Source: Cyanidioschyzon merolae
Lineage: Eukaryota
Assembly (NCBI GenBank): GCA_000091205.1
Contig: AP006499.2
Length of the DNA stretch: 64,000 nucleotides
Strand: one strand, 5' to 3'
The translations under genes were made by a program, and so were the position numbers. The notes beneath the pieces are model-generated. The model ran no database searches. It saw only the letters and a list, made by a program, of their open reading frames with translations, and was not told the DNA's origin. How positions within the stretch are numbered: position 1 is the first letter of the stretch; each line of letters starts with the position of its first letter. This document shows, one piece after another, positions 12,471-36,400 of the stretch.

Positions 12471-15400
12471 TCACAATACAGTCGTCAACGTCGACGATGG
12501 CGCCACGGACACTGCGACGCCAGCCTCGCGCACACGCATCGTTCCGGGTGACGTAACCGCACGTGCGGTGCTTGCGTCCTTTCCGGTACTTGGGTCCAGG
12601 CGCAGCGCACGATACCGACCCTGACAACGAATGAGAAGACGCCTCCCATTCGAGGATGCATCCATCCAGGCCGCGCACGCACGCATCACCACGAGCTCGT
12701 GATCGCCCGCATCGACGAGTGCGTGCACCTCCGCGGCGAGCACCGCCGCCGCATCGCCGATTGCCGCACGAACGCTCTGCGTTACCGCTGGAGGCACCGC
12801 AGTCGCGGCGGACGCGGTACCCGTACGGAGCTCCGTGTCGAAGCGCACCTCGGCGACATATGTGCCGTCGTCGAAGCGTGACGTCAAGGCAGGTATGCCG
12901 CCGCCCTGTCGTGCATTCAGAATCTGGATACCAATGGTGACAGGCGCAGCAGGCGGCGTGCTTGTCGAGTAGGCCTCGCGGAGGCACCGCGCGAACGCTG
13001 CATCGCGTTGTATGTTGCACGACAGGAATGCAGCCGTGCGAGACGATGCGCTGCAGCGGAGCGATGTGACGCAGAGCCACTGCACGCTGCAGTCGGGGCG
13101 CTGCAGCGTCAGCACCGCAACCGCTTTGGGTAGGGCGCTTGCAAAGCGCCTGAGCTCCTCGGCTCGTTCAGCGGGTTCGCTTGCAGGTGCTCGGGGTACA
13201 CAACGCAGCTCGATCGTTCCGAGCTGATTCTGGAAATAGAGCAGCAGCCGCATCGGGTCTGGTGTGCCGAACGTCAGCTGCTGAACCTCGGCTACCACGA
13301 GATATTCGCCGAATTCTGGTGTCAGTGGATGCGTACGACGGACGTTGACCTGTAGCGCTGGTGCGCTAGGCAGCGCATCGCGTTCCAAGTTCAGGTCCGT
13401 GAGGTGCACCAACGAGCCGCAGGCCTGGGAAGCGCCGCGCATTCGGGCGAGCGCGAAGATTCGCTCGACCAGTGGCTGATGCGCATTCGTTAGAAGGTAC
13501 AGGGACAGCGCATCGGGTAAACCAATGTGACCGTGAGCGCTCAGCGCGACGTCTTCATGGATAGGCTTCTCGTCGCCACTGCAGGTATCTGCGGGTTGCG
13601 TGCACGACCTCACGTCATCGACAACCATGTGAAAAGAAACGCACGGCGGTGAAAGCGAACAGACTGCAACCGTGTCGACGAGTGCAATTCCGAGCGTATT
13701 CGTTGATGGCAGCGCTGCGACGACAAGAAATAGGACACGCGGTAGGAGCGCTGCTGCCGCTGAGCAGGCCATGAAACCGGTCTTCAACTCGGGTAGGATG
13801 CGCGGGCTTGCCGCACGCGGTGTGCTCTCTATGCGCGGCCCCTTTTCGAATTCAGACCGCATCAGAACGGCAACCGAGGGTAATGGCTGAAACGGAGGCA
13901 CATAAAAGACGCTTCGCTCGCTTTTCGCCGCGTTCTTGGAGTATATCTGCCTCGTGACCAGACAGTATGCAAGAACTTGTGGGTGCCCTTGCAACCATTC
14001 AGCCGCGTCCGATGCCTTCTGAAACGTCATTGCTGCGGTGGCCAGAGCGTCCGCTGTGGCTGCATCCTTTGCAAGCACCGTCGCCGACGCTATCGAATCC
14101 TTGGTGGCCCGCTGGACGCGTCTCGTGAGCGGGCACAATATATGATAGAAGCCGAAACGCTCCATCTGGTAGTAATCTCCAGACGTAGCGAGTCCGAAGC
14201 CTTCATCACTGTCTTCGAATGCCAGCGAAAAGGCTGCATCCTTGAGGCACGGTATCCACGTCCGCGCTCCGTGTTTCCATCCGGAAAACAGTTGCTCTAG
14301 CGGTGGCGGGCGAATCACCAGCGTTCGCCACGGGCGACCACTGGGATGTCGTCCCCAGGCCCTAATTTCGCTACCCCAGTCCAGAAATGCTCCAACAAGT
14401 TGATAAGCGCCCTCCGGCGAATCAGCGGATACTGCTGCGCTCTCCGCACCAGAGACACTCGATTCAAGGCCGCCAGCCGCCGGCGATATCCTATTCTCTA
14501 GCGATTTTCCATTATTATCTGTTGCTGGTGCTGCTGCAGGAGCAACAAGTTCGCTAGATTGTAGCTTTGATTGATCGTCCAGCCGCAGACGCTCTGCTCC
14601 AAAGCGCTCTCGCAAAGTCCTGTCAATCTGATCAATGATCCAGCCTTTCAGCATCCCATCCAGATCGATACACACACCGCTGCGCGTCAGCACAAGCGCA
14701 CCGGGGTGTCCCGGGCGCGGTGCTTGCAACCGCACGAGCTCAGACCATCCGACCTTTTCCCAATCAAGTTGAAAACGCTCTTCCTTGGGGGGGGCGCTGC
14801 AGAGCACTGCTGCGCAGCGTCGCCCTGAAACCACGCCACAGCGCACCGCATGTCGGATCGAAACGCCCACCAGTGACCCGATGCAAACGATGCGCCTCTG
14901 CCAACAATGCGTACAAAATTGTACCAACTTCGACAGCCTTTTTCGGATGCGCGCTGCTGCACGCTGCGCTCAGCTCCGAGTCGGGATTCCACCGATTCGC
15001 GATGCGTTCGCAAGCGTGCATGTGGGCGCGCAAGCACGCGTGCACTGCGCGTAAGAGCGACTCGGGAACGCAAGCGTCCATCACGCATTCGGGTGCAGCG
15101 GACGATGCACCCAAAGCCGCCCAGTGCATCTGAAGTTGCAATGCGATTCCGAACGCCTTGCCTGAAAACACGACAAGCACGCGATCTTGGTAAGCTTGCT
15201 GGACAACGGAATCGAGCGATAGATCGAGCGGCGACGGGGGCGCGCCGATGCCGCCCGCCGCCGCTCCCTCGTTCGTGGCATCTGATGTAGCATCGAACCG
15301 ACACCAGGCGTCATCGTGGGCGTTAAGCACCTCCTGGTGCACCGCTGCGCCATCTTCCGCAACGAGGTCCGCTGAGGAATCCTCCATACTATACGCTGCC

Positions 15401-17266: not shown

Positions 17267-19921
17267 TCACAGAATCATGTACTGTGAATAGACCAGATCG
17301 CGAACGTCAAAGTACTCTGCGCTGAGTGATCCTTCAATCACCAAATCGTGCTGACGCTTCCGAACGAGCACAATACTCGGAGGCCGATCGTTCTCGACGC
17401 AAAGCGCCCCACCGGCAAACTCCGCCGGCATCAACGATTTGGTCATGATTTCCTTCAAATCGGAAAGTCGCAAATCTCCGACGAAAACATTAAGGTGTCC
17501 GACCTGCGTCCTTTCTGTTACGAGCGCGAACGTCGTCGTGTTAGCCGTGCGATCGCCATCGACTAGCGCTGTCGCTGCAGAGGCTGCGTCTGTTGTCTTC
17601 GCTGCCAACCAGGCTGCATCGACTCCGGACTCCGTGCCTTCGGGGAGCTGCTGCTCCTGCTCCGTCTGTCGCTCGACGGATACCAGGCGTAGCTGGCCGT
17701 CGGGATCGGTCTGGATATAGCCATCAAACCAGGCCAGTTCGTAATCCTGCATCCGCCGCCAGAAGCAACGTCGCAGCAGTGAATCATCGAGTTTGATCCG
17801 GTATACCGACGTGTCCGACGAGACATCGACCATCTCGCGCGCACGTGGCGCGTATAAACGCGTAAAGTTCTTCTTGCCCAGGTACTCGGTGAGCGCAGCC
17901 GTTTCGCGCTCGCTTCCGTGAATGATAATCACTCGCTGAGGTGCCATACTGACGATAAGTTGACGCAAGGAACGGCCATCAGCAAGCCCGGCCATATCAA
18001 AGTTGCGAACCGCGCACCGAATCGTTAGGTCATTGACGACATAGCGAACGAGTTTCGTGGGCAACGTTTCCAGCGCTCGACTCGTTGTCGAATCCGCAAC
18101 AGCCGCATCGTTGTCGTGGGCGGAGCTCCGGAAACGATCGCGACGGTGATAACTCCCCGGAGCATCAGCCGATGTTCTCTCTGGTCGCACAGACGGGGAC
18201 ACAGATGGCGACGGAGCTGTCGCCATGCGCTCGTCGTGGAACCCGTCGATGTTGTCAGTTTTGTGCGGCTCGAGGTCCATCGGCTCACCTTGGTCAGGCG
18301 CATGACGACTGAATGCGTTGTCCGCGCTCTTCGCGAGGCCCTCAAACGCGTCACCGTCGATGGTGCGGTCACCGGGGTCCTCTCCGATCATGTACCTAGC
18401 AGGATCGATGACCTCCCCGTACGCATCGTGGGGCGGTGGCTCGGGCTCCACATGCGGTAGCAGCAGACCAGCCTGAACGAGAGCTTGGTACCGCTGATTC
18501 ACATCATCCTCTTCCTCATCTTCGGCGACTCCGGGAAAATCCGGACCAAGCGCCTCATGGAGCTGGGCTGCATCACCAGCAACAAGCGCCTCGCCGAGCG
18601 GGCCCGAGCTAACGACCCGACCGCCACGCAACTTCTCGGCGACGGCCGTCGGAGCTACCATCGGCATCTCAGCGCTTTCCAGAGCAACTTCTGCTCCGAC
18701 AAAACGGGCTTTCTCTTGCTCCCGTTGCCATCGCTCAAGCTCCTCGCCCTGGAGTGGAACCCGCTCAGCATACGTGAGCGGTTCACGCACACGCAGTTTC
18801 TCCTTCTCCACTGCCAAGCGAAAGGCAAACGTGCCCGACTCGAGGCGATCGCTCATCAGCACCATAGCGCGTGGATCCGCTGCAATCCGTTGTAAGAATA
18901 GAACACGCGAGAATCCATAGTCAAGCGACGGCAACGGTGCCATGACGACTTTGGGACTCGGCAAGGCATCGGCCTGATCCAGCCCGTGAACAACCTGCAC
19001 GTGTCGCAAGCGGAAAGGATTCTCGCGCCTGCTATCAAAGGCACTCACCACCGCGTCGCTCATCCATTCAATCAGTGATTTGGCAAATTCAATGGTGTGG
19101 ATACCAACGTGTTGTGCAAACACCACCGGATAGAGCGCAGCAACATCCGGGTGTGCAGTCCAGAATTCATCAGCGGCTACCAAGAGCTCCAGACAACGAC
19201 CAGCAGAGTCCACAGGCATGAGCACGTCCCCGCCTCCGCGTAGCGTTTCGACAACTGCCTCCCACAGGTCTGTTTCTTTCTTCTGGGATGGAGCAGTGAG
19301 TACGCCGCTTGCGCCCACAATGAGGTGGCTCGGTTTGGTGATCAACTGCGGCGTGGAGGCGCAGCCGTTCAGCAGGCGCTCCCTCCGATGGTTGACATCC
19401 ACACAGTAAACGATCTCTTCGGACTCTTTCTGGAATTTCCATATCGCACCACCGAGTAGGTGTCCCGCGGGATACGCCGTAGCGAAAACGTTCTGAGCGA
19501 GCTCAATGACTTGCTGGTACTTAACAGGGCGCATCCGTTCGAAGGCTTCATCGACGTCATCGAGGGTGAAGGTTTCAAAGTCTTCACCGTAGTACCGGTG
19601 CTGGTGTGCGTCGTAAAGAAACATCTGCCCTAGGATCTGCACTGGTGTTGTTGCATAGATGGGTACGCTCGCTGGGAGGCCGAGCTTCCCCACGAGGTAC
19701 GGCAGCGCACCCAAGTGAGCCAAGTCGGGATGCGTCAGGAAAACCGCATCAATACCACGAGTAATGACCGGCCGAAGTGGTTCCAGAAGAGCAACATCAA
19801 AGCGATCGTTCCACCCGCAGTCCAGGAGAAAAACCCCGTCGTCGATCTCGAGCACTGTGCAGAGCGGCGGTGCGGACGTGTGCGCTCCGTACAAAGGCGT
19901 TACGCGTATCGATGAAGCCAT
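17267..19921 (-). CDS. CPSF2: cleavage and polyadenylation specificity factor 100-kDa subunit (CPSF2/CPSF100)
   Basis: 884 aa. LTHPDLAHLGALPYLVGKLGL (histidine-less MBL motif typical of CPSF100), AGHLLGGAIWKF, beta-CASP region. C-terminus CVENDRPPSIVLVRKR...YFDVRDLVYSQYMIL matches the CPSF100 tail. ATG 19919-19921. Confidence 0.9.
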   Translation of the reverse strand: MASSIRVTPLYGAHTSAPPLCTVLEIDDGVFLLDCGWNDRFDVALLEPLRPVITRGIDAVFLTHPDLAHLGALPYLVGKLGLPASVPIYATTPVQILGQMFLYDAHQHRYYGEDFETFTLDDVDEAFERMRPVKYQQVIELAQNVFATAYPAGHLLGGAIWKFQKESEEIVYCVDVNHRRERLLNGCASTPQLITKPSHLIVGASGVLTAPSQKKETDLWEAVVETLRGGGDVLMPVDSAGRCLELLVAADEFWTAHPDVAALYPVVFAQHVGIHTIEFAKSLIEWMSDAVVSAFDSRRENPFRLRHVQVVHGLDQADALPSPKVVMAPLPSLDYGFSRVLFLQRIAADPRAMVLMSDRLESGTFAFRLAVEKEKLRVREPLTYAERVPLQGEELERWQREQEKARFVGAEVALESAEMPMVAPTAVAEKLRGGRVVSSGPLGEALVAGDAAQLHEALGPDFPGVAEDEEEDDVNQRYQALVQAGLLLPHVEPEPPPHDAYGEVIDPARYMIGEDPGDRTIDGDAFEGLAKSADNAFSRHAPDQGEPMDLEPHKTDNIDGFHDERMATAPSPSVSPSVRPERTSADAPGSYHRRDRFRSSAHDNDAAVADSTTSRALETLPTKLVRYVVNDLTIRCAVRNFDMAGLADGRSLRQLIVSMAPQRVIIIHGSERETAALTEYLGKKNFTRLYAPRAREMVDVSSDTSVYRIKLDDSLLRRCFWRRMQDYELAWFDGYIQTDPDGQLRLVSVERQTEQEQQLPEGTESGVDAAWLAAKTTDAASAATALVDGDRTANTTTFALVTERTQVGHLNVFVGDLRLSDLKEIMTKSLMPAEFAGGALCVENDRPPSIVLVRKRQHDLVIEGSLSAEYFDVRDLVYSQYMIL

Positions 19922-21665
19922 GAGTTTTAACAGTTAGACTAGCGCATGAGAACGTTTCCGCGTTGACTCTGCAGACAAACGCCCAGGTATCACCGTCAAC
20001 AGGCACCTCCGGGGCGCTAAGACGCAGGTTCGCTCCCAGGTTCTGCTCTCTCAGAAGGGCTAGCGTAACGCCGCTTCGTTTGCTGGCTCGTGACGGCTCC
20101 AGCGCGCCGCACCTGCAGGTACACGAAACCGTTCACAGTGCTGAAGATTACGCTTTTCCAGGTGCAACGCTCTTTGAGGTTGAACAGTCTTGTGATCCGC
20201 TCGTTTAGACGAATACACGCGAGCACGCGTCGAGATGTTCGAAGTTGTCCAACAGTGGATTGTTCTCGCGATGGGCAACGGCCTTGATACGAGACGCTGC
20301 AGAGGATACGACATTGGGTGCATGGGGTTCCCGAAGGAACGCATATTCGTTGTTGATGGAACCTGAGTGGTTTAGAGCTGACTGGTGGTTCTTTAGCCGG
20401 ACACCGATAACATTCGCATTGTTGGGGAACCCTGGTCAGTGCGACCCGATCTCCGACTTCAAAATACGTACGTTGCAGATTTCCGAGGTCAATGAAGCAA
20501 TGTCTGACGCAAGTAAACGGGTCATCTACATAGTCTACAGCAGTGTGTAGCGTTGCGGCGCACGCGGCTGGCCCTACGGAGTCAACGAAGGTGTTTGGAG
20601 CGGCAAGGCCACTGCGCGCGGTTGCTTGTGGTCGACCTACTGTTCTGAGAGCGTGCACTAGACATCGAAACCAGTACGATGAACGCAAGTCCGGCGATGC
20701 CAGGTTCCCGCAAAGTATTCGTAAGTTTCGAATCGATCCGTGCGTACACGAAACAGGTGCGTAGCGGGCATGTACGCTGTCCTGGGGTTGCTGAAACTCG
20801 CTTGTGTTTTCCGAGCGTATTGTCGACCCCGGTCAGCCACCGGTCGAAGTTTATTGTTCGAGAATGGACTGTGAGGTCCTGGCAGGACTCGGACGTGTCT
20901 GGTGAAGCGCATCACGTTTCGCGAAAGCAAGTCATATCAAGGGGTCTACGCTATATACGTCCTGGCAACAAGGCTACGGAATATCTGTAAGAGACTCGTG
21001 CATGCGTTCCGCCTAGACCTTTCCGCTGCCCGATGAGGAGCCGCCTCATGCTGAATTCTTCTGTTCCTAAAACAAGACTGAGTCGTAGTGGGTTTACCAC
21101 CCGTGATTTGCCCTAGAACATGCTACGAGAGCGCACGTCTCCGCGAGAGCCAAACCATGAGCATATATGCATCTTGCAGACGCTTTCAGGTCGCAGCTGG
21201 TGATTTCAAATCATAGCTCTGGTTATGGGGCATCTCATATCAACCAGTACCTCCCGGGGCCGGGTCCTCTGATCACGCGATGCACAAACACGTCGGATCC
21301 GTTCGATAGGAACCAAGGGGAGATGCTGATGGTCAGCACAGATGCTCCTCCATTCGAGCGCACAATCGCTGTTATCTTCGCAGCCAGCACCTGCCCATAC
21401 GTAAGGCCTGCTAAGAAACATGGTGCCCGAACACGCGTCGCTTCGTTTCCTAGGCATAAACGCTTGCCGTAAACCGGATCAACATGCACCTCCAGAATCA
21501 ACGAGCCGCCAGTACCTATTCGATGCACTCGCGTCCCGAGTCGGGCCAGCAGCGCGCTCCGTGCAGGTGTTTCCGTGACAACGCCATGAGAGACTAACCG
21601 CCGAGACCGTGGCCTCAGAACGCGACTGCCATTGCCGGGGCATGTGGATGCTCGAACGTCGGTAT

Positions 21666-22361
21666 TCAAAAGGTCATGCGATGCGGATATTGGCCCTTGG
21701 TCAGCGTGAACCGGCTCGAAAGGTATTCGCGGAGCAAAGGAATTCCTTCAACAGCTTTCATCACCTGTCCGTCGATCTGCTTCTGTAGGTTCTTCTTTTC
21801 CTCCGGGAGGCACTGTTTTACAGTCGATTCGCCACCGGAACCGTCCGCGCCGCGCAAGCGGGCTTTCTTTCGCTCCTCGCGAGCCTTGCGAGCACCCTTT
21901 GTGAACCACGTATCGTCAACGGAGCTCGTATCGATACCACTTATATCCACCCGCGTTTTCGTCGCAATCACATAAACCTGATTAACTCGTCGAAGCGGTA
22001 CGCCGTTCAGTGCAAACGGTCCCGTAACCAGCAGGAGGCCAGAGTGCTCCAACTGCCGCAGAAACACCACCCGTTTCCCTCGAAACCGCCCAGCCAACAT
22101 GATAAGAACCGTTCCAGGCTGTATCGAGTTGCGCAACCGCGTGCGCTGCTTCTGGGAACGCTTCTTTGCGCTGGTATGCAGCCGACGCACCCGCGCATCA
22201 ACTGGATAAAAGCTTGGTTTCCGCTTCGGTGCGCGCTCAGAAGGCTTCAGCTCGATGACATTCCCTGTGCCGGAAATGATGGCCGCCTGTTCTTTGATCG
22301 CAGCCTGCAGTGCTGCATCACGTTCGGCACGTTCGGAGGAACCTTTTGTGAAGACGCTCAT
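21666..22361 (-). CDS. RPL6: 60S ribosomal protein L6e
   Basis: PSFYPVDA...PGTVLIMLAGRFRGKRVVFLRQLEHSGLLLVTGPFALNGVPLRRVNQVYVIATKTRVDISG. Start at internal ATG 22359-22361; track start 22403 is TTG. Confidence 0.9.
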   Translation of the reverse strand: MSVFTKGSSERAERDAALQAAIKEQAAIISGTGNVIELKPSERAPKRKPSFYPVDARVRRLHTSAKKRSQKQRTRLRNSIQPGTVLIMLAGRFRGKRVVFLRQLEHSGLLLVTGPFALNGVPLRRVNQVYVIATKTRVDISGIDTSSVDDTWFTKGARKAREERKKARLRGADGSGGESTVKQCLPEEKKNLQKQIDGQVMKAVEGIPLLREYLSSRFTLTKGQYPHRMTF

Positions 22362-24030
22362 GCCGAAGTGTAGACTCCTTTTCGGACTCTGCTCGAGGCA
22401 CAATACTCCTAAACGAGGAGGTCACAGATAATCCGCGTGCGAACATTCCCGGCCTCGGCGGCTGCGTCCGATCGGCGAAGAGGAAATCCCTTAAATAGGC
22501 GAAGGTAAATTCCATATTACATGGCGCGTCCAACTTTAGCCCATTTTCCGCCGTAGAAAGACGCAGGATCGAGCCAGGCTCATTCGAATACGCAAATGCA
22601 GCCGGGAACCACAGAAGAGGCCTCGAATGCTCTCCAGATGCTTCAAAGCTCCATGAGCCGAAGCGCAGACTTCCCGTTGGTCGTCCTGGTTCGATCAGTC
22701 TTACGATGCTTGTCCTCTGGGAGACGCACCAACCGTCAATGGTTGTTTCGGCGCTTGAAGCCGCAATGCCATACTCGTCGTGTGGAAACAGAGCGCTTTT
22801 CGTCTTCCTGACGGAAGCCTGCCTGAGACTTGCACCCATCTGTGAAGTCAACGAAGCGACTTCGAGCCGCACCAGTTGAAGTTGCCCGCAGGAGGAAGCG
22901 GAGGATACCACACGCCCAAACGTTTAGCGTTCAGAGGTCCGTAACGAGGCATGAACTCTGGATACACCTTGAGCATATCGCAGCTGCCGGGCACAGTTGC
23001 TGGTGCTGGTTCGGACAAAACGAGCGATGACGCTGGACGCGTGGCTCGCCGTTTACGAGGATCAAAACTGAACATGTGTTGGCGAGGGGCGTTAACCATG
23101 TGCGAACCCGCGTACCCTGATCTTCCGAGACTCGCGATGCCCCAGCTTAGCCAGGCGCACTCCGTCGCCCATGTTCCCGAAATAGTGTCGCATGCGGGCG
23201 TCTCTTTGGTCTCTGAGATCGGAGGAGTCTAATTGCGTGCGAGGATAATCGACAGGGATGTGGCTTCAGATCAAGTGCCAACGAGCGGCAAGCTCCAGTT
23301 AAGAGACGAATCTTCATGAGCGCCGAGCCGACTGCCACGGACATGTAGCACCGCTTTGCAAACAGAGGGATAATCGGGAATGATGCTCTTGTGCACAGAA
23401 TTCTCTATCGTGCAACGATACCGCTAATGGTGTTGCGAATACGACCATGGTCAGTCGCTTCTGCTCTGGAGACCGAAGCTCAGGCCCGCGCTTCGTGCGG
23501 CAAACCCTCGTCTGCCGAACGATACACTGTCCTGAGCTCATTGGAAGTATCGGTGGCGTCGCAGCAGAGCTGGGTAGAATCTCGTGCATGTCGGGCGGGG
23601 AGCGGGCCTCATCAAACGGATCCAGGAAACACCAACAATGGACATGATTGTCCCTATACTCAATCTAGATGGACGCGGATGCATGCGATGACGCGTGATT
23701 CGCAGACATAAACTGGAATGTCATAAGACATAAATATACAAAACTACCAAGAGTCCGAGAGCGCGCTTCTGCGCCCCGTAGCGCTAGACGCAACGTGCGG
23801 CACATATTCGAACGCGGTTGCGCTTTCGGACACGTATCCACCAGGTGTGCCCGAGAGATCCTGCGTACTTCTTTTGTCGCAAACAGAGCGAAGAAGCGTC
23901 TACTGTCACCGAAGGCACGCAGTTGGCGGAACCTGGTGTGCAAGCGTCAGCGTGCTGTCACTCTTGGACCAGAGAAGCAGTGCTGTTGACGAGCGCTGGT
24001 GTTTCGGGGTCACCTGCTCCGGGAGCCGCC

Positions 24031-27000
24031 ATGTCGGCGGCTGTGCACTACAAGTTCCGCTCTGCGAAACACTTTGGTCGGGTGCAGTTTGAGGGGGACT
24101 TTATTCAGCTCGCAGAGCTAAAAGTAGCCATTGTGGAGCAAGAAAAACTGCAGTTTGGCGAGGACTTTGACTTACAAGTAGTTGACGCACAAACCCAGGA
24201 AGAGTACTACGACGAAGAAACCTTGATACCGAAGAACACTTCGGTTATCGTGAAACGAGTGCCTGCTGGCCAGAAGCAGGGCATATTGAGTCAGATCGCA
24301 CTCGCAAGGAAAAATGAGCGCTTCGCTGAGATTCTCGACCGCTCAACCGGCGGCACGGGTGCCACAGCGGGCGCTATTGCTGCAGCTGCACGGCAGGTGC
24401 TTGCTGGCAACCTGGGACCCAGCACAACCGCGAACACAGGCATGACGGGCAGTGAACCTGTCCGGCTCCGTCGAGGTGACGAAGACACGCGCCTTGCCTC
24501 CGTGGCCCTCGCAGCTGGCGCAGGAGACTCGGGCCCGAATCCACGAAACATCCAGCGTCCAGGCGGCCGCGTAACGGCCTCGGGAGCGATGGATGGGCCA
24601 CCGCCGGGTGCGCAGCCACCGCCAGGTTATATCTGTCACCGCTGCGGAGAGCCAGGCCATTATATCCAACACTGCACGGCAAACCTGGAAGGCGATGTGA
24701 ATATCATTCGTGTGAAGCGACCAACTGGCATTCCGCGGAGCATGCTAAAAACGATTGATGCACCTGTAGATGGAGGGACCGAGCTTCAGCTTCCAGGTGG
24801 TAAATTCGTGACCCTAGCCACAGACGATCGTGAGTTCAGCAAAGAACCCCTGGCGGTGCGAATGGCGCGCCTTGCGGAAGCACGAGCGGGGGCACGCGAG
24901 GACAATACCATCGCTTCCGACGTTACGACGATACAAGGATCCGAGACGAAGCAACCAGTGCCCATGGATAAAAAGGAATCGGAAACAACTCGTCGCCAAG
25001 TTGCTGCTTCCGATGCGCCATCGGAGAGCGCGGCGTCATCGCCGCGAGGCTCCACGCCAACAGACTCGGTGGAAAACGCTCAGCTGTTACCAGCAGATAT
25101 ACGCCCCGATTTACCCTACTTCCCGTTACCAGGAATGGATCAGAAGGAACATTTCTTTGGGACAGGCGAACTGCCCACCGCGCGTGAGTTCCAGGAAGTA
25201 ATCTGGGGTATTATTTTGATGAATAGGGATCAGCATCCAGAACTTGGGCATGACATGGAGACGGGAACTCAACGCGATGTGACGCGGGATTCGGCGGCAG
25301 CGCTCCAGCCTGAGCCCAGATCCATGGAAAGCGCTGAAGCGCCGAGCACGACAAATGAGCGTGCTGTATCAGCACAGCCGCGGCCGCGGATGACTGCTTC
25401 TGCAGAAGGAGAAAGCTACCAGGAGCGCCGGCCGCAGGCGCACGAACGAAAGACACCCACGCATGTGCAGGATGTATCCAAGCGTTCTCCAACATCTGAA
25501 GCACAAAACGTACCCGAACGAGGCGACAGAGATCCCGACAAATCAGCGCCTCGAAGTGGAAGCGTCGCCAATGCGCGTCCGATACCCTCCAGCTTCAAAT
25601 CCACAGAGACCGCGAATCATCATCTAGACGCAGAAAGGCCAAGACCAGGGCGTCGATCGTCGGCGCTCCAGGTGACGTCGATGGAACCCTCAGGTGCACC
25701 ATTTGGCGAAATCGAGTACTCGCGTGTGTCGACCAAGAATCAGCGCTTGCTACCGCCGGATCGGAAGGCTACTGAAAGCGCTCAAGCAACAGCCCCGAAC
25801 TACGGAAATTCATTGCCGAGGAAACAAGCTGCCTTTGCCCGCAGTGGAAAGATGACTGGGAATACCACGAGACCGGGGCTGCCTCTTGCGCCGCTCCAAA
25901 CGCAGCAGCAGCAGCAGCACCAGCAGCAGCAGCAGCACCAGCAGCGACAGACGCATGTGCAACGCTTTCAGGCTGCAAACCAACACGGCAACGAGGCAGC
26001 GAGCGTGGATAAACAGCACCCCTTGGACAGAGGTCAGCATGCCATGCAGAGAACGGAGCCTGCGCGAGAACGTCGACAACCTACTGTTGCAGCCGCCGAC
26101 AGGAATGCGGTATCGCGAGGCGTTCCGACTTCGAGGGCGACCTCTTCTGGTGTCACAGCAACGGGCTCTACCGCGCCCGTTCGTACCAAAATGCCGCCAC
26201 GAATGCCGCATCAGAGACCAGATGAGGATACGCTGGGTCACAGGCATCATGCAGCGTCGGACACGGAGCAAAAACCTGCCCAGTTGAACGCAAACCTCTC
26301 TCAGCCGCAACCGCTGAGCGTGTCGCGTGCTCGAGAGCGATCAGGTCTGGGAAAAAGCGCTCGGCACTCGCCGGCACCCGTGGCACCTGCTCTGCATGGA
26401 ACAACCCGAAAGCACCCGCGGGCTAGCGACTCGTCACCAGGAACCGAGACGCGCGACTCAAGACCGATTCCAGTTTTTGCTCGTCTGGGCACGAGAGCAG
26501 AAGCTGCAGCGTCTACGCGCGCCCCAGCCTCTGTGCCCCAGCGGAGCACTACCGGGAGCATCGGGTCCGCGGAACGGAGGACGGTGCCGCCAGCGCATCC
26601 GCCTCCTGCAGACGCGTCGCAGCTCAAAGGCAAAAACTCCTCCCCGATGAATCAACAAGGCGAATATCTACACCGAGCGAGTGTACGCGCACCACCAAAG
26701 GTTCCGGAAAAGCGTCCGGCAGCGACAGCAGCTGTTGGCGACGACAAGCGCTCCCGGAACACGCCGAGCTCAGCCGAGCGGGCCGCCGCTAACGTCTTTG
26801 AACGATTAGGACCAGCGATACCGGTGCCTCCTCGTCTTGCTGGGCGTATTTCGAGCGGAAAAGTCAGCGACGGTGAACGCGGAGCGAACGCCTCTACCGG
26901 TGCATCTGGTGTGGTCGCCAACGACGCCTCGAAAACGAAAACGAACCTACGGGCAGTGCACGCGAAGCAGAGCGTCCCTATGACACAGCAAAAAACACCC

Positions 27001-27072
27001 GTGCCGACATATTCCTCGAGTGAAACAGGTTCAAGTCGTGCCCGGAACAGGGCTGCAAACTTGCCGTGGTAA
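24031..27072 (+). CDS. RBBP6/Mpe1-like protein: DWNN ubiquitin-like domain plus CCHC zinc knuckle, no RING detected, long disordered tail with polyQ
   Basis: MSAAVHYKFRSAKHFGRVQFEGDFIQLAELKVAIVEQEKL...LIPKNTSVIVKRVP (DWNN). YICHRCGEPGHYIQHC (CCHC). RVKRPTGIPRSMLKTIDAP matches the RBBP6 linker. ATG at 24031; track ORF starts 23818. (CAG)n at 25903-25946 encodes QQQQQHQQQQQHQQ. Confidence 0.8.
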   Translation: MSAAVHYKFRSAKHFGRVQFEGDFIQLAELKVAIVEQEKLQFGEDFDLQVVDAQTQEEYYDEETLIPKNTSVIVKRVPAGQKQGILSQIALARKNERFAEILDRSTGGTGATAGAIAAAARQVLAGNLGPSTTANTGMTGSEPVRLRRGDEDTRLASVALAAGAGDSGPNPRNIQRPGGRVTASGAMDGPPPGAQPPPGYICHRCGEPGHYIQHCTANLEGDVNIIRVKRPTGIPRSMLKTIDAPVDGGTELQLPGGKFVTLATDDREFSKEPLAVRMARLAEARAGAREDNTIASDVTTIQGSETKQPVPMDKKESETTRRQVAASDAPSESAASSPRGSTPTDSVENAQLLPADIRPDLPYFPLPGMDQKEHFFGTGELPTAREFQEVIWGIILMNRDQHPELGHDMETGTQRDVTRDSAAALQPEPRSMESAEAPSTTNERAVSAQPRPRMTASAEGESYQERRPQAHERKTPTHVQDVSKRSPTSEAQNVPERGDRDPDKSAPRSGSVANARPIPSSFKSTETANHHLDAERPRPGRRSSALQVTSMEPSGAPFGEIEYSRVSTKNQRLLPPDRKATESAQATAPNYGNSLPRKQAAFARSGKMTGNTTRPGLPLAPLQTQQQQQHQQQQQHQQRQTHVQRFQAANQHGNEAASVDKQHPLDRGQHAMQRTEPARERRQPTVAAADRNAVSRGVPTSRATSSGVTATGSTAPVRTKMPPRMPHQRPDEDTLGHRHHAASDTEQKPAQLNANLSQPQPLSVSRARERSGLGKSARHSPAPVAPALHGTTRKHPRASDSSPGTETRDSRPIPVFARLGTRAEAAASTRAPASVPQRSTTGSIGSAERRTVPPAHPPPADASQLKGKNSSPMNQQGEYLHRASVRAPPKVPEKRPAATAAVGDDKRSRNTPSSAERAAANVFERLGPAIPVPPRLAGRISSGKVSDGERGANASTGASGVVANDASKTKTNLRAVHAKQSVPMTQQKTPVPTYSSSETGSSRARNRAANLPW

Positions 27073-33439: not shown

Positions 33440-36400
33440 ATTATGCGGGTTCTCCTTTCTTTTTTGTGTGTTTTCTTTCAGTGCGCGGCGACGTATCCAC
33501 CAACCCCCTACCTCCAAGTTACATACCCTTTACTGATTCCAGGATATTCTGGTCGTTTCATACGTCCCATCGCGTGTGCCTCGTACCTGCCGTTCCGTAT
33601 TCGCCTTTGCGCTTGAACGCTGGAGCAGATAGTTCATGGAGCTGGAACAGCTTTTCTACACCACAGAGGGCGTCGGCTCGAGGCGTGCTTCACCCGACGT
33701 AGAATCGGATCTCGTCGTCAGTTTGTGCTCGGACAGTCTGCGGATGCAGGCTTGTCTTCGCTGCACGACACGCTGGAGAAACTTGGTTGTTAGGATATAT
33801 CGTGGAAGCCGCCTCTCTCCTTTGTGATCATGCATGGAATGCGTTGTTGTCGGTTGGCAATGCGGGTTTGTGCTTGACACCCACCACAGTGGGTAGGCGC
33901 AAAGAGCGCACTGAGCCCATGTGCGCATCCGATTCGCTGGACCTTCCGCCTAGAAGGTAGCATGTGAGTTTGTTCGCCACTAATGAGCGCTGAGGCTCGG
34001 TTAGCGGACCATCAGTTGCCAGTGCTACACTCAGGGTGAGTGTCCGGCCTTTTGCTATCACGGTGATGTCCAGCTGCTGCTGTCCTTCAAGGAGCTCGCT
34101 GCGCTCCTGCTTCGAGCGCGGGCACTGTAAGCCCAAATATGTCAGCGTCTCGGGGGTCTGGTCTCCAGAGCAGGGACAGTGTGACTCCCAGTGCGACTCC
34201 AGTGTTCCTATACGGCTTAGAGCCGGTGCTGGTAGCCAGATGCCACCAACGCGGATTTTGGCGAGCCACTGGGTACCTCGAGCAAGTCCCGGGAATTCCA
34301 GCGCCTCCCACCAGTACTTGCACGTGTTTGCTAGGTTGTAGTTCCGGTATACAGTCAAGCCGGCGTTAAGGGCGCGATTTGTTCCGTGTCTACGTTCCCA
34401 TATTGTTTGGACCGTTCGCTTGAGGCGGCGGGAGCCTTGTACATTTCTGGGGAACGATTGGAGCGCATTTTCGCCTAAGAGGCGCTTCAGCCAAATCTGC
34501 GCTGATTTCATCCAAGTGTTCTAGCGGTGCGTTGGGGTCTGCATGAAAATCCGACTCAAAGAGGTGCGCATAGTGGGCCCTTTGGCCCGTATACATGCCC
34601 GGCAGCCTGCTGCTATCGCTTCTGTCGAGGCTATTTGGAGTTCAAGTCCGAGTGCCAGCGCGGTGGTTGCTCTGCTCTGCACTGAGCATCCAACAACAAC
34701 GAGTCGCATTGCCCTGTTGGCGGCTGTCTGCGGACGCGAGGCATTTGTGTGCTTCATGCCGCACCACCCAGCACCCCAGGTCGTAGGCTGGATGATACAC
34801 ATCCTTAGTGCCCTCGTACGGATTGCTAAGGGGATAGAGGGGTCGGATAGGACTGGGCGTGCGATCGCTGTACGTCTACGCATCTTGGCGATCATCTCGT
34901 TAACGTGTGCCTTTTCGTCGAGCGTCAGCATGCGACAGACCCTGCAGATAGCGATATTTTTCCCCGATCGGACTTTCCTGATTCTGCAACCGCCACGAGC
35001 GATTGCGAATGCTCTGCGAGTCTCCATGGATGACCATGACGCCGCACTTCGATGCTCCTACGTTCATCTTCCAGCGATCGACCCAGGCGCTGACTTGTTC
35101 CATGCTACCCGCAAGCGTTTCCGGGGCGGGTGCCAACAACACGACATCGTCCGCGAATAGAAGGCCTGCGAGGCGGTTCCTATGCGAGGGCTCTTTACCG
35201 GGCTCTCCGCAGTCTATCCACGGCACCTCAAGTCCGTATTGTCTGCAGTTGTTCAGCGGATCGTTGATGAAGATGTTGAAAAGGAGCGGGGATGCGGGGT
35301 CGCCCTTTTGTAGTCCACGGCGGATTCTTATACAAGGGGTTCTTGAGCTGTCGCCCAGTCGGATGCGCATCCATGAGTCTGCATAGAGCGCACGGAAGAA
35401 CGCTAAGCACTTTCCGGAGACTACGGCACGTTCCATCTTCAAAAATAGAACCTCGTGCGGGACCGTGTCAAAGACCTTTTGGAAGTCGGTGAAGCATACG
35501 TAAGTTGGTTGTCGGTCACGAATAAAGCGACGTTGCGCCACTTCAATGAGGGTCAGGGCATGGCTCATGTACTCCTCGCGGCTCCGGAATCCAGCCTGCC
35601 CTGGGGCGAAGAACTTGCGTTGCTCGAGGCCCCTCTGAGTCCGGTTCGTGGGAATGGCGCAAAGTAGCTTTATGATTGACGGGATGAGGCGCATAGTCCG
35701 GTAGTTGTTCATGTCTGTGTGGGAGTCTTTTTTGAGGATCGGTACGACTTCGGCAGTCCTCCATACATCCGGGATGTACGTTTCTTCGAACATGCCTTGG
35801 ATGAGCTCCACAAGGCGTTTGCCTAAGCTTGTGTCAGGTTCATCTGGTATCGATGGTGTCCCTGTTGTCCCGTCTTTTGGGGTCGTCAGTTTCATCCACT
35901 CCGCAGGGATACCGTCGATGCTAGGTGTTTTGCGGTTGCATGACCTTAAGAGGGTCCGAACAGATTCAGGCCAGAAGATTGGCTCGTTCCATTCCGGTAC
36001 CGGGTCGAGGCGCGGTAGTTCTGCGGCATACTGGTGCCAATAGATTCGGTTTTGGCAGTGCCCAGTTGCGTCTTCATGTAATTCTGTGCCGTGGTCCGTC
36101 CAGGCCTCATTCACTGAGGCACCCTCCGTCCTCAGCGCTTCCTTATAAACGATTGGTGTGAGCCCCAGACACTTTTTTGGTGGGTCAAGTCTCGATCGGA
36201 TATAGCGCTAGGTCTCATCTTCGTTGGTGCTCTCGAGCATAGATTTCGCCAGGGAGGCGATTTTGCGGTTTCGATCCTCCTGTTTGTCTTCTCTGGAAAG
36301 TTTCTTCTTTCTTTTGATAGCTTCCTCATGTTGCGCCTGTAGCGCCGGTAGCGCTGCCTTCGCTTCCTTGTCTCCGGCGTTGGCGCGTATGGCGGTGCGT

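What the first reader, a model, noticed from the sequence alone, without database searches (positions are those of the whole stretch)
24031..27072. RBBP6/Mpe1-like protein without a RING domain
DWNN domain and CCHC knuckle are clear and the post-knuckle linker matches RBBP6, but no C3HC4 RING follows. Instead there is a roughly 700-residue low-complexity tail with polyQ. RBBP6/Mpe1 is an mRNA 3'-end processing factor, and its partner CPSF100 is encoded 4 kb away (17267..19921). Loss of the RING would remove E3 ligase activity, unless the RING has diverged beyond recognition.
Basis: partly seen in the sequence, partly recalled or inferred. Interest (0 to 1): 0.5.

Follow-up and report, generated by a model that had tools for sequence, protein, structure and literature searches.

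The report
RING-less RBBP6/Mpe1 of red algae
This gene encodes the red-algal version of RBBP6/Mpe1, the protein that switches on the enzyme cutting mRNA 3' ends; it keeps every part known to be needed for that job but has cleanly lost the RING (ubiquitin-ligase) domain, as do the other red algae sampled.

Summary

There is no RING or U-box:
- The protein has only three cysteines, all in the knuckle.
- Pfam at E<=10, a family-specific RING HMM and profile-profile comparison all find nothing.
- AlphaFold2 predicts disorder where the RING should be.
- The other reading frames are full of stops.

The loss is not an artefact. The same architecture occurs in Cyanidiococcus, Cyanidium, two Galdieria species and Pyropia. 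These span the deepest red-algal split, so the RING was probably lost in the red-algal ancestor.

The tail is not featureless. It keeps two short motifs, 'PLxxEF' and 'VFxRLG', which lie downstream of the RING in land-plant homologues, in the same order.

Residues shown experimentally to be needed for CPSF73 activation are conserved (F9, D45, R76, P78, P235, aromatic 269).

CPSF100 does lie nearby, but RPL6e sits between the two genes. That linkage holds only within Cyanidiaceae.

Verdict: an orthologue of a known factor with a lineage-wide domain loss. I found no report of it in the searchable literature. Interest is moderate.

The parts
24031..27072 (+). Complete ORF, 1013 aa plus stop: RING-less RBBP6/Mpe1 orthologue
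   Evidence: 99% identical to P0001. 72-75% identical over the N-terminal ~400 aa to Cyanidiococcus yangmingshanensis 'E3 ubiquitin-protein ligase rbbp6' P0002.
24043..24264 (+). DWNN / ubiquitin-like domain (aa 5-78), the part that docks on the CPSF73/Ysh1 nuclease
   Evidence: Pfam PF08783, E 3.4e-29. AF2 pLDDT 84-97. Foldseek matches human RBBP6 DWNN 2c7h (TM 0.84) and Mpe1 in the Ysh1-Mpe1 complex 6i1d_B (TM 0.82, rmsd 1.1). F9, D45, R76 and P78 are identical to the Mpe1 'FDRP' interface residues (alignment; PMC9380774).
24280..24333 (+). Red-alga-specific motif GILSQIALARKNERFAEI (aa 84-101) directly after the DWNN domain; function unknown
   Evidence: The regex signature occurs in 43 of 333 collected family members. 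All 43 lack a RING, and every named one is a red alga. No RING-bearing sequence has it. AF2 predicts a helix at aa 85-104 with pLDDT ~60.
24475..24504 (+). Acidic motif GDEDTRLASV (aa 149-158), counterpart of 'EEE(R/K)I.A(M/L)' in Mpe1, RBBP6 and PQT3
   Evidence: Aligned (E151 nearly invariant in A4). AF2 predicts a helix at aa 151-162.
24619..24678 (+). CCHC zinc knuckle (aa 197-216; ligands C202, C205, H210, C215)
   Evidence: Pfam PF13696, E 5e-8. All four ligands are invariant across 44 aligned homologues. AF2 pLDDT 86-88.
24694..24888 (+). Pre-mRNA-sensing region (aa 222-286): core IRVKRPTGIPRSMLKTI, then helix DDREFSKEPLAVRMARLAEARA
   Evidence: Aligns to the Mpe1 PSR in 7zgp_F. R227 and K229 correspond to Mpe1 R207 and R209. 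P235 corresponds to P215, the RNA contact. F269 corresponds to the aromatic residue Mpe1 W257 / RBBP6 Y228 (PMC9380774, PMC8887125). AF2 pLDDT 72-83.
24889..25086 (+). Where the RING would be (aa 287-352): non-conserved, cysteine-free, predicted disordered linker
   Evidence: In 221 canonical homologues the RING starts a median of 60 aa (range 37-112) after the knuckle. Here that stretch has no Cys, no HMM hit and pLDDT below 50. The alignment shows low-complexity sequence in the RING columns.
25087..25224 (+). Conserved block LPADIRPDLPYFPLP...FFG...LPTAREFQEVIWGIILMN (aa 353-398): proline-rich stretch plus 'PLxxEF' helix; not a RING relic
   Evidence: Invariant positions across Cyanidiaceae. 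hhalign against the RING gives probability below 1%. AF2 predicts a helix at aa 384-399, pLDDT 74-77. The equivalent motif 'P(L/M)(S/T)REEF..(L/M)Q' lies 200-330 aa downstream of an intact RING in 12 (strict) or 57 (loose) of 167 RING-bearing homologues, against 0 in shuffled tails.
25903..25950 (+). Q/H run QQQQQHQQQQQHQQRQ (aa 625-640)
   Evidence: TRF reports a (GCA)n array at 25902..25945. The run is 4 residues shorter in the 99%-identical P0001.
26473..26496 (+). First 'VFxRLG' tail motif (IPVFARLGTR, aa 815-822)
   Evidence: Conserved in Cyanidiococcus.
26794..26817 (+). Second 'VFxRLG' tail motif (NVFERLGPA, aa 922-929)
   Evidence: Conserved in Cyanidiococcus and Cyanidium. The same motif ('SVFSRISFP') occurs in the tail of 74 of 119 long RING-bearing homologues (every example inspected is a land-plant protein), against 0 in shuffled tails.
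17267..19921 (-). CPSF100/Cft2 gene, a nuclease-module partner; context only, not part of the feature
   Evidence: Pfam Lactamase_B_6, Beta-Casp, RMMBL and CPSF100_C. The order CPSF100(-), RPL6e(-), RBBP6(+) is also found in Cyanidiococcus L001 and the Cyanidium-like L002, but not in Galdieria L003.
21666..22403 (-). Ribosomal protein L6e gene lying between CPSF100 and RBBP6 (context)
   Evidence: Pfam PF01159, E 9e-31.

Best explanation
The gene encodes the orthologue of RBBP6 (human) / Mpe1 (yeast) / PQT3 (plants) in a Cyanidioschyzon-type red alga.

Inferred mechanism, from the yeast and human work:
- The N-terminal ubiquitin-like DWNN domain docks on the nuclease domain of CPSF73.
- The zinc knuckle and the pre-mRNA-sensing region bind the WDR33/CPSF30 polyadenylation-signal module once RNA is bound.

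Shown here:
- The RING/U-box that follows the PSR in canonical family members has been deleted and replaced by a disordered linker.
- The modules flanking it on both sides are retained in their ancestral order: DWNN, knuckle, PSR, [RING missing], 'PLxxEF' motif, 'VFxRLG' motifs.

The protein therefore cannot act as a RING-type E3 ligase. It most likely works purely as the CPSF endonuclease activator or scaffold.

The deletion is shared by Cyanidiophyceae (Cyanidioschyzon, Cyanidiococcus, Cyanidium, Galdieria) and Bangiales (Pyropia). By parsimony it dates to the red-algal common ancestor.
For: - Domains and alignment to Mpe1 and RBBP6 structures.
- Only 3 Cys, all in the knuckle.
- No RING by Pfam at E<=10, while controls are positive.
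- No hit with a family-specific RING HMM at E<=1000 with filters off.
- hhalign probability below 1%.
- AF2 predicts aa 290-380 as disordered, while DWNN, knuckle and PSR are confident.
- No RING in any frame of the window or of loci L001-L006.
- RING-less orthologues occur in Cyanidiococcus (P0002), Cyanidium caldarium (P0319), Galdieria sulphuraria (P0108/P0252), G. phlegrea (P0111) and the Pyropia cluster P0092. The Pyropia transcript contig has no RING in any frame.
- Residues needed for activity in yeast or human are conserved: F9, D45, R76, P78, P235, aromatic 269 (alignment with PMC9380774 and PMC8887125).
- The post-RING motifs of RING-bearing homologues are retained in the same order.
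- Human RBBP6 lacking the RING (aa 1-253, or an internal deletion of 253-326) still activates cleavage in a reconstituted system (PMC8887130). A RING-less protein can therefore do the core job.
Against: - No experimental data exist for this protein. Association with CPSF and absence of ligase activity are inferred.
- A second, RING-bearing DWNN paralogue elsewhere in red-algal genomes could not be excluded, because whole genomes could not be searched here.
- Six long RING-less sequences carrying the red-algal signature (P0110, P0179, P0185, P0220, P0231, P0245) are unnamed. 'All red algae' therefore rests on named Cyanidiophyceae plus Pyropia.
- In yeast the RING is reported as important for Mpe1 function (Lee and Moore 2014, cited in PMC9380774), so its loss may have required compensation that was not identified.
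- The AF2 alignment is shallow over aa 290-400.
Confidence: 0.82

Rival explanations
1. The RING is still there but has diverged beyond sequence recognition, for example into a cysteine-free U-box-like fold somewhere in aa 287-400.
For: U-boxes are zinc-free RING-like folds, and the RBBP6 RING is itself U-box-like (Kappo 2012, cited in PMC8887130). There is a strongly conserved block at aa 353-398. By eye, 'LPADIR' loosely resembles the 'IPDELL' that precedes the RING.
Against: - No U-box or RING Pfam hit at E<=10.
- The family RING HMM and hhalign find nothing.
- AF2 predicts only a single helix (aa 384-399) after a disordered proline-rich stretch, with no beta-hairpin plus helix core.
- Foldseek returns only ubiquitin-like folds.
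- The same block ('PLxxEF..Q') coexists with, and lies 200-330 aa downstream of, an intact RING in many homologues. It is therefore a separate module.
Confidence: 0.04
2. Assembly error, frameshift or unrecognised intron hides a RING-coding segment.
For: Some relatives have frameshifted or split gene calls, for example Pyropia L004 and L005.
Against: - The ORF is continuous for 1013 codons.
- The other frames have 26-27 stops.
- No RING scores in any frame of the window.
- The identical architecture appears in independent assemblies from at least 5 named species, and no RING is found within 6-10 kb of the gene in L001-L006.
Confidence: 0.01
3. This is a RING-less paralogue, analogous to the DWNN-only RBBP6 isoform 3 of vertebrates. 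A canonical three-domain orthologue exists elsewhere in the genome.
For: Whole red-algal genomes could not be searched. Truncated DWNN proteins do exist in other lineages (PMC1360078, PMC4201286).
Against: - The protein retains the knuckle, the PSR and both tail motifs of the full-length orthologue, in the same order.
- Three database searches and one exhaustive HMMER search returned only RING-less proteins for every named red alga, and no second protein from Galdieria, Cyanidiococcus, Cyanidium or Pyropia.
- The family is single copy in most eukaryotes (PMC1360078).
Confidence: 0.08
4. The gene is a decaying pseudogene or non-functional remnant of RBBP6.
For: About 72% of the protein is low-complexity and poorly conserved. 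The polyQ length varies between near-identical strains.
Against: - The N-terminal 286 aa are 59-75% identical across cyanidiophycean genera, with nearly all functional residues invariant.
- The ORF is intact at about 1000 aa in two genera.
- Short tail motifs are conserved between Cyanidiaceae and land plants.
- RBBP6/Mpe1 is essential for cleavage in yeast and in the human reconstituted system (PMC8887130, PMC9380774).
Confidence: 0.02

Closest known systems
Saccharomyces cerevisiae Mpe1 (CPF nuclease-module subunit; PDB 7zgp, 6i1d)
   Same: The UBL/DWNN domain, CCHC knuckle and PSR align over Mpe1 residues 1-245 (E 1.7e-25). The Ysh1-contact residues F9, D45, R76 and P78 and the RNA-contact proline are identical. 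The model superposes on 6i1d_B with rmsd 1.1 Å.
   Different: Mpe1 has a RING finger after the PSR, reported as important in yeast (PMC9380774). Here it is absent. This protein also has a tail of about 730 aa that the 441-aa Mpe1 lacks.
Human RBBP6 (PACT/P2P-R), especially the engineered RING-less fragments 1-253 and the 253-326 deletion
   Same: DWNN (49% identity to 2c7h), knuckle and PSR are shared, followed by a long disordered tail. Engineered RING-less RBBP6 still activates CPSF cleavage in vitro (PMC8887130). That is the architecture found naturally here.
   Different: Natural RBBP6 has a U-box-like RING with E3 activity, plus Rb- and p53-binding regions. None of these is present here.
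Land-plant PQT3 / PQT3-like (Arabidopsis AT4G17410 family, P0061 and relatives)
   Same: This is the best-scoring named non-red-algal group (E ~1e-33). It shares the post-RING 'REEFE' motif and the C-terminal 'SVFxRI(S/G)(F)P' motif in the same order.
   Different: PQT3 proteins carry a RING/U-box at aa ~283-352. The red-algal proteins do not, and they have an extra 'GILSQ..KNERYAE' motif after the DWNN domain.
Other RING-less DWNN plus knuckle proteins found here (Tieghemostelium lacteum KYQ94140 P0237, Blastocladiella britannica KAI9220518 P0250, unnamed groups P0097/P0197/P0242/P0313 and P0158/P0165)
   Same: DWNN, knuckle and PSR are followed by a cysteine-poor disordered tail with no RING HMM hit. 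The P0097 group also carries the 'PLxxEF' motif.
   Different: They lack the red-algal signature motif and are not close relatives, so the losses are probably independent. Gene-model quality was not verified for these.

Membership tests
RBBP6 / Mpe1 / PQT3 family (three-domain form of Pugh et al. 2006) | N-terminal DWNN (ubiquitin-like) domain, found only in this family | tested here: met
   Pfam PF08783, E 3.4e-29, aa 5-78. Foldseek TM 0.84 to 2c7h and 0.82 to 6i1d_B.
RBBP6 / Mpe1 / PQT3 family (three-domain form of Pugh et al. 2006) | CCHC zinc knuckle (CX2CX3GHX4C) about 100-130 aa after the DWNN domain | tested here: met
   Pfam PF13696, E 5e-8, aa 197-215. C202, C205, H210 and C215 are invariant in 44 homologues.
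RBBP6 / Mpe1 / PQT3 family (three-domain form of Pugh et al. 2006) | Pre-mRNA-sensing region with the conserved R-x-(R/K)-R-x-T-G-I-P core and a downstream aromatic helix | tested here: met
   Alignment to the 7zgp_F PSR. G233, P235 and L239 are invariant in 44 homologues. F269 is invariant in red algae.
RBBP6 / Mpe1 / PQT3 family (three-domain form of Pugh et al. 2006) | RING / U-box-like domain after the PSR | tested here: not met
   No Pfam hit at E<=10. No hit with the family RING HMM. No Cys beyond aa 215. AF2 predicts disorder. On descent it is an orthologue of the family; on architecture it is a two-domain variant, not the canonical three-domain form.
RBBP6 / Mpe1 / PQT3 family (three-domain form of Pugh et al. 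2006) | Physical association with CPSF73/CPSF100 and activation of pre-mRNA cleavage | not testable with these tools
   Only inferred, from conservation of the interface residues F9, D45, R76, P78 and P235 (PMC9380774, PMC8887125).
RING/U-box E3 ubiquitin ligases | Cross-brace zinc-binding RING, or a zinc-free U-box fold, able to bind an E2 | tested here: not met
   Database names such as 'E3 ubiquitin-protein ligase rbbp6' (Cyanidiococcus P0002) and 'Uncharacterized RING finger protein' (Galdieria GJD08191) are therefore misnomers transferred by homology.

The most novel reading that the evidence does not exclude
The red-alga-specific helix immediately after the DWNN domain (GILSQ..KNER(Y/F)AE, aa 84-104) occurs in every RING-less red-algal orthologue and in no RING-bearing family member. 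It may be a lineage-specific replacement contact with the CPSF nuclease module, or with poly(A) polymerase, that compensated for RING loss. If so, red algae would run 3'-end processing with a rewired, ubiquitination-free RBBP6.
Probability: 0.1. Interest if true: 0.55.

Novelty: new variant of a known kind. Interest (0 to 1): 0.4.

Why it matters
[quoted passage not shown] The protein is routinely annotated as an E3 ligase.

Reconstitution work showed that the human RING is dispensable for cleavage in vitro (PMC8887130), whereas yeast work says it matters (PMC9380774). An ancient eukaryotic phylum that has lived without the RING, while conserving every residue needed for nuclease activation, is a natural experiment. 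It supports the view that the ligase function is an add-on rather than part of the core 3'-end machinery.

There are three practical consequences:
- Database names calling the Cyanidiococcus protein an 'E3 ubiquitin-protein ligase' and the Galdieria sulphuraria protein a 'RING finger protein' are misnomers.
- C. merolae is genetically tractable, so it could serve as a minimal system for studying RBBP6's non-ligase role.
- The tail motifs 'PLxxEF' and 'VFxRLG', shared between Cyanidiaceae and land plants, are candidate uncharacterised interaction sites.

Tried and rejected
1. RING-relic hypothesis for the conserved block aa 353-398. By eye 'LPADIR...FFG...EFQEVIW' looked like a cysteine-less RING. 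I rejected this because hmmsearch and hhalign find nothing, AF2 shows a single helix, and the motif sits downstream of intact RINGs in other family members.

2. Frameshift or hidden exon. Rejected.

3. Functional clustering with CPSF100. RPL6e lies between the two genes. The trio is conserved in three Cyanidiaceae even where the flanks are rearranged, but not in Galdieria. I treat it as inherited synteny rather than evidence of function.

4. Rfam scan of the window found no RNA family, so nothing RNA-based explains the 4.1-kb gap.

5. The second and third word-index protein searches returned mostly short or plant sequences. They did not name florideophyte or porphyridiophyte orthologues. The unnamed signature-bearing proteins (P0110, P0179, P0185, P0220, P0231, P0245) therefore could not be assigned to taxa.

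6. Exact look-up of the window proteins found none in the collection. The source strain is inferred as Cyanidioschyzon-like only from a 99% match to unnamed JGI proteins and a 72-75% match to Cyanidiococcus.

7. Literature searches for Cyanidioschyzon or red algae together with RBBP6 or Mpe1, and for 'DWNN' together with 'lacks the RING', found no prior report.
Full report
**What is in the sequence**

The window is compact, about 56% G+C and apparently free of introns. It carries ordinary eukaryotic housekeeping genes: Brix, inositol-polyphosphate kinase, CPSF100, RPL6e, histidinol dehydrogenase, Vps26, ATP synthase gamma, an M16 peptidase and eIF2D.

The flagged ORF starts at ATG 24031, in the context GCCGCCATGT, and ends at TAA 27070-27072. 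It encodes 1013 aa. Orthologues start at the same methionine.

The nearest named relative is Cyanidiococcus yangmingshanensis, at 72-75% identity over the first ~400 aa. Unnamed JGI proteins are 99% identical. The source is therefore a Cyanidioschyzon-type cyanidiophycean red alga. This is an inference, because the exact proteins are not in the collection.

**Checking the observation**

- Pfam finds DWNN at aa 5-78 (E 3.4e-29) and the RBBP6-type CCHC knuckle at aa 197-215 (E 5e-8). It finds nothing else even at E<=10.
- A PDB sequence search aligns aa 1-267 to yeast Mpe1 (7zgp_F, E 1.7e-25). Aa 195-244 align to the human RBBP6 knuckle structure. [quoted passage not shown]
- The remaining 727 aa are rich in A/S/P/R/T/Q, and a Q/H run lies at aa 625-640.
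- CPSF100 at 17267..19921 (-) is confirmed.

**Is the RING really missing?**

- The whole protein has three cysteines, all of them knuckle ligands. A zinc-binding RING is therefore impossible.
- Positive controls behave as expected. Arabidopsis PQT3 and Trichoplax RBBP6 give U-box/RING hits at aa ~283-354. In total 92 of 107 collected homologues match a RING regex.
- An HMM built from those 92 RING regions scores 74-87 bits on three canonical proteins checked. It gives no hit at E<=1000, with all filters off, on this protein or on five other RING-less homologues: three cyanidiophycean orthologues, the Pyropia-cluster sequence and one unnamed sequence.
- It also finds nothing significant in the six-frame translation of the window, or of the flanks of related loci.
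- The alternative frames across the gene contain 26-27 stops.
- AlphaFold2 was run on a 44-sequence alignment. It is confident for DWNN (pLDDT 84-97), the knuckle (86-88) and the PSR (72-83). It predicts aa 290-380 as disordered.
- Foldseek against the PDB returns the RBBP6 and Mpe1 DWNN domains and other ubiquitin folds. It returns no RING or U-box.

**The conserved block at aa 353-398**

I suspected that this block (LPADIRxDLPYFPLP...FFG...P.AREFQEVxWGIILMN) was a degenerate RING. That idea fails.

- hhalign against the RING alignment gives a probability below 1%.
- AF2 sees one helix, at aa 384-399.
- The same motif occurs downstream of intact RINGs. Examples are P0120 (RING 243-318, motif from ~478) and Diphasiastrum P0235 (RING 275-351, 'RPLTREEFLELQ' at ~656).
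- 'P(L/M)(S/T)REEF..' lies 200-330 aa after the RING in 12 (strict pattern) or 57 (loose pattern) of 167 RING-bearing homologues. Shuffled tails give 0.
- Likewise, the two 'VFxRLG' motifs in the tail match 'SVFSRISFP', which is present in 74 of 119 long RING-bearing homologues; every example inspected is a land-plant protein. Shuffled tails give 0.

The protein is therefore collinear with full-length family members except for a clean removal of the RING.

**Distribution**

An exhaustive HMMER search of 1.84 billion representative proteins gave 1725 hits. Among the best 150, the closest relatives are all RING-less:

- Galdieria sulphuraria (XP_005707390 / GJD08191)
- G. phlegrea
- Cyanidium caldarium (KAK4535070)
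- a Pyropia yezoensis / P. vietnamensis cluster
- six unnamed long proteins

A Pyropia transcript contig has no RING in any frame. After an apparent frameshift it carries a Pro-rich and RS-rich tail.

All 43 sequences carrying the motif G(I/V)L(S/A)(Q/H)..KNER(Y/F)(A/S)E just after the DWNN domain lack a RING. Every named one is a red alga, and no RING-bearing sequence has the motif.

Cyanidiophyceae and the mesophilic red algae are the two sides of the basal red-algal split (PMC6811547 abstract). Parsimony therefore places the loss in the red-algal ancestor. This fits the roughly 25% gene loss reported for that ancestor (PMC6811547).

RING-less forms also turn up in a dictyostelid (Tieghemostelium), in Blastocladiella and in two unnamed groups. 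Loss has therefore probably happened more than once, although those gene models were not verified.

**How it most likely works**

In yeast and human, the UBL domain binds the CPSF73/Ysh1 nuclease. The PSR binds Pfs2/WDR33 and touches the polyadenylation-signal RNA through a conserved proline. Both contacts are needed to activate cleavage (PMC9380774, PMC8887125).

The residues mutated in those studies are conserved here:

- Mpe1 F9, D45, R76 and P78 are identical here.
- Mpe1 P215 / RBBP6 P195 corresponds to P235.
- Mpe1 W257 / RBBP6 Y228 corresponds to F269.
- The knuckle ligands are intact.

Human RBBP6 without its RING (aa 1-253, or the 253-326 deletion) is active in reconstituted cleavage (PMC8887130). 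A RING-less protein is therefore sufficient for the core role.

I infer, without having shown it, that this protein is the CPSF endonuclease activator of the alga and has no E3 ligase activity.

**The CPSF100 neighbour**

The order CPSF100(-), RPL6e(-), RBBP6(+) is shared by the window, Cyanidiococcus and a Cyanidium-like contig. It holds even where the flanking genes are rearranged. It is absent in Galdieria. This is most simply inherited synteny.

**Comparison with what is known, and novelty**

By descent this is an RBBP6/Mpe1/PQT3 orthologue. By architecture it fails the RING criterion of the 'three-domain form in all eukaryotes' (PMC1360078). Names such as 'E3 ubiquitin-protein ligase rbbp6' and 'RING finger protein' on the Cyanidiococcus and Galdieria sulphuraria entries are misnomers.

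Literature searches found no report of RING-less RBBP6 in red algae.

I rate it a new variant of a known kind, with moderate interest. It is a useful natural confirmation that the ligase domain is not part of the conserved core. It does not reveal a new mechanism.

**Remaining uncertainty**

- A RING-bearing paralogue elsewhere in red-algal genomes has not been excluded.
- Several signature-bearing sequences are unnamed.
- Function is inferred from conservation only.

Noticed in passing
window 34900..36114 (-), within 34-38 kb: A 404-aa ORF with a reverse-transcriptase domain (RVT_1, E 5e-20) lies in a stretch of strongly negative AT skew. The equivalent interval between the histidinol dehydrogenase and Vps26 genes in Cyanidiococcus (L001) is about 2 kb shorter and has no reverse-transcriptase call. 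This is probably a retroelement insertion.
   Followed up: partly
L003 6603..8530 (-) (Galdieria sulphuraria contig BPMW01000034): The gene divergently adjacent to the Galdieria RING-less RBBP6 encodes a 391-aa protein with several CCCH zinc fingers. It might be the CPSF30/Yth1 homologue, another 3'-end processing partner. This was not checked.
   Followed up: no
window 24280..24333 (aa 84-101): The motif GILSQIALARKNERFAEI directly after the DWNN domain is restricted to red-algal, RING-less family members (43 of 333 sequences). AF2 predicts a helix of moderate confidence. Its function is unknown.
   Followed up: partly
window 25903..25950: The Q/H run, encoded by a (GCA)n tract, is four residues longer than in the 99%-identical protein P0001. 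This indicates repeat-length polymorphism between strains.
   Followed up: partly
window 12471..14927 (-): An 817-aa ORF combines an ApbE (flavin transferase) domain with a C-terminal flavin-reductase-like domain. The Cyanidiococcus neighbour gene has ApbE only, at 484 aa.
   Followed up: no
window 17267..24031; L001 5080..10001; L002 2..2400: The trio CPSF100(-), RPL6e(-), RBBP6(+) is retained in three Cyanidiaceae. In L002 the Brix and IPK genes lie on the opposite side compared with the window, so the surroundings have been rearranged while the trio stayed together.
   Followed up: partly
L004 (Pyropia-cluster transcript contig, SRR14127538): The RBBP6 reading frame shifts from frame 3 to frame 2 after about aa 400 and continues into a Pro-rich and RS-rich tail. 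This is either an assembly frameshift or a real feature. There is no RING in any frame.
   Followed up: partly
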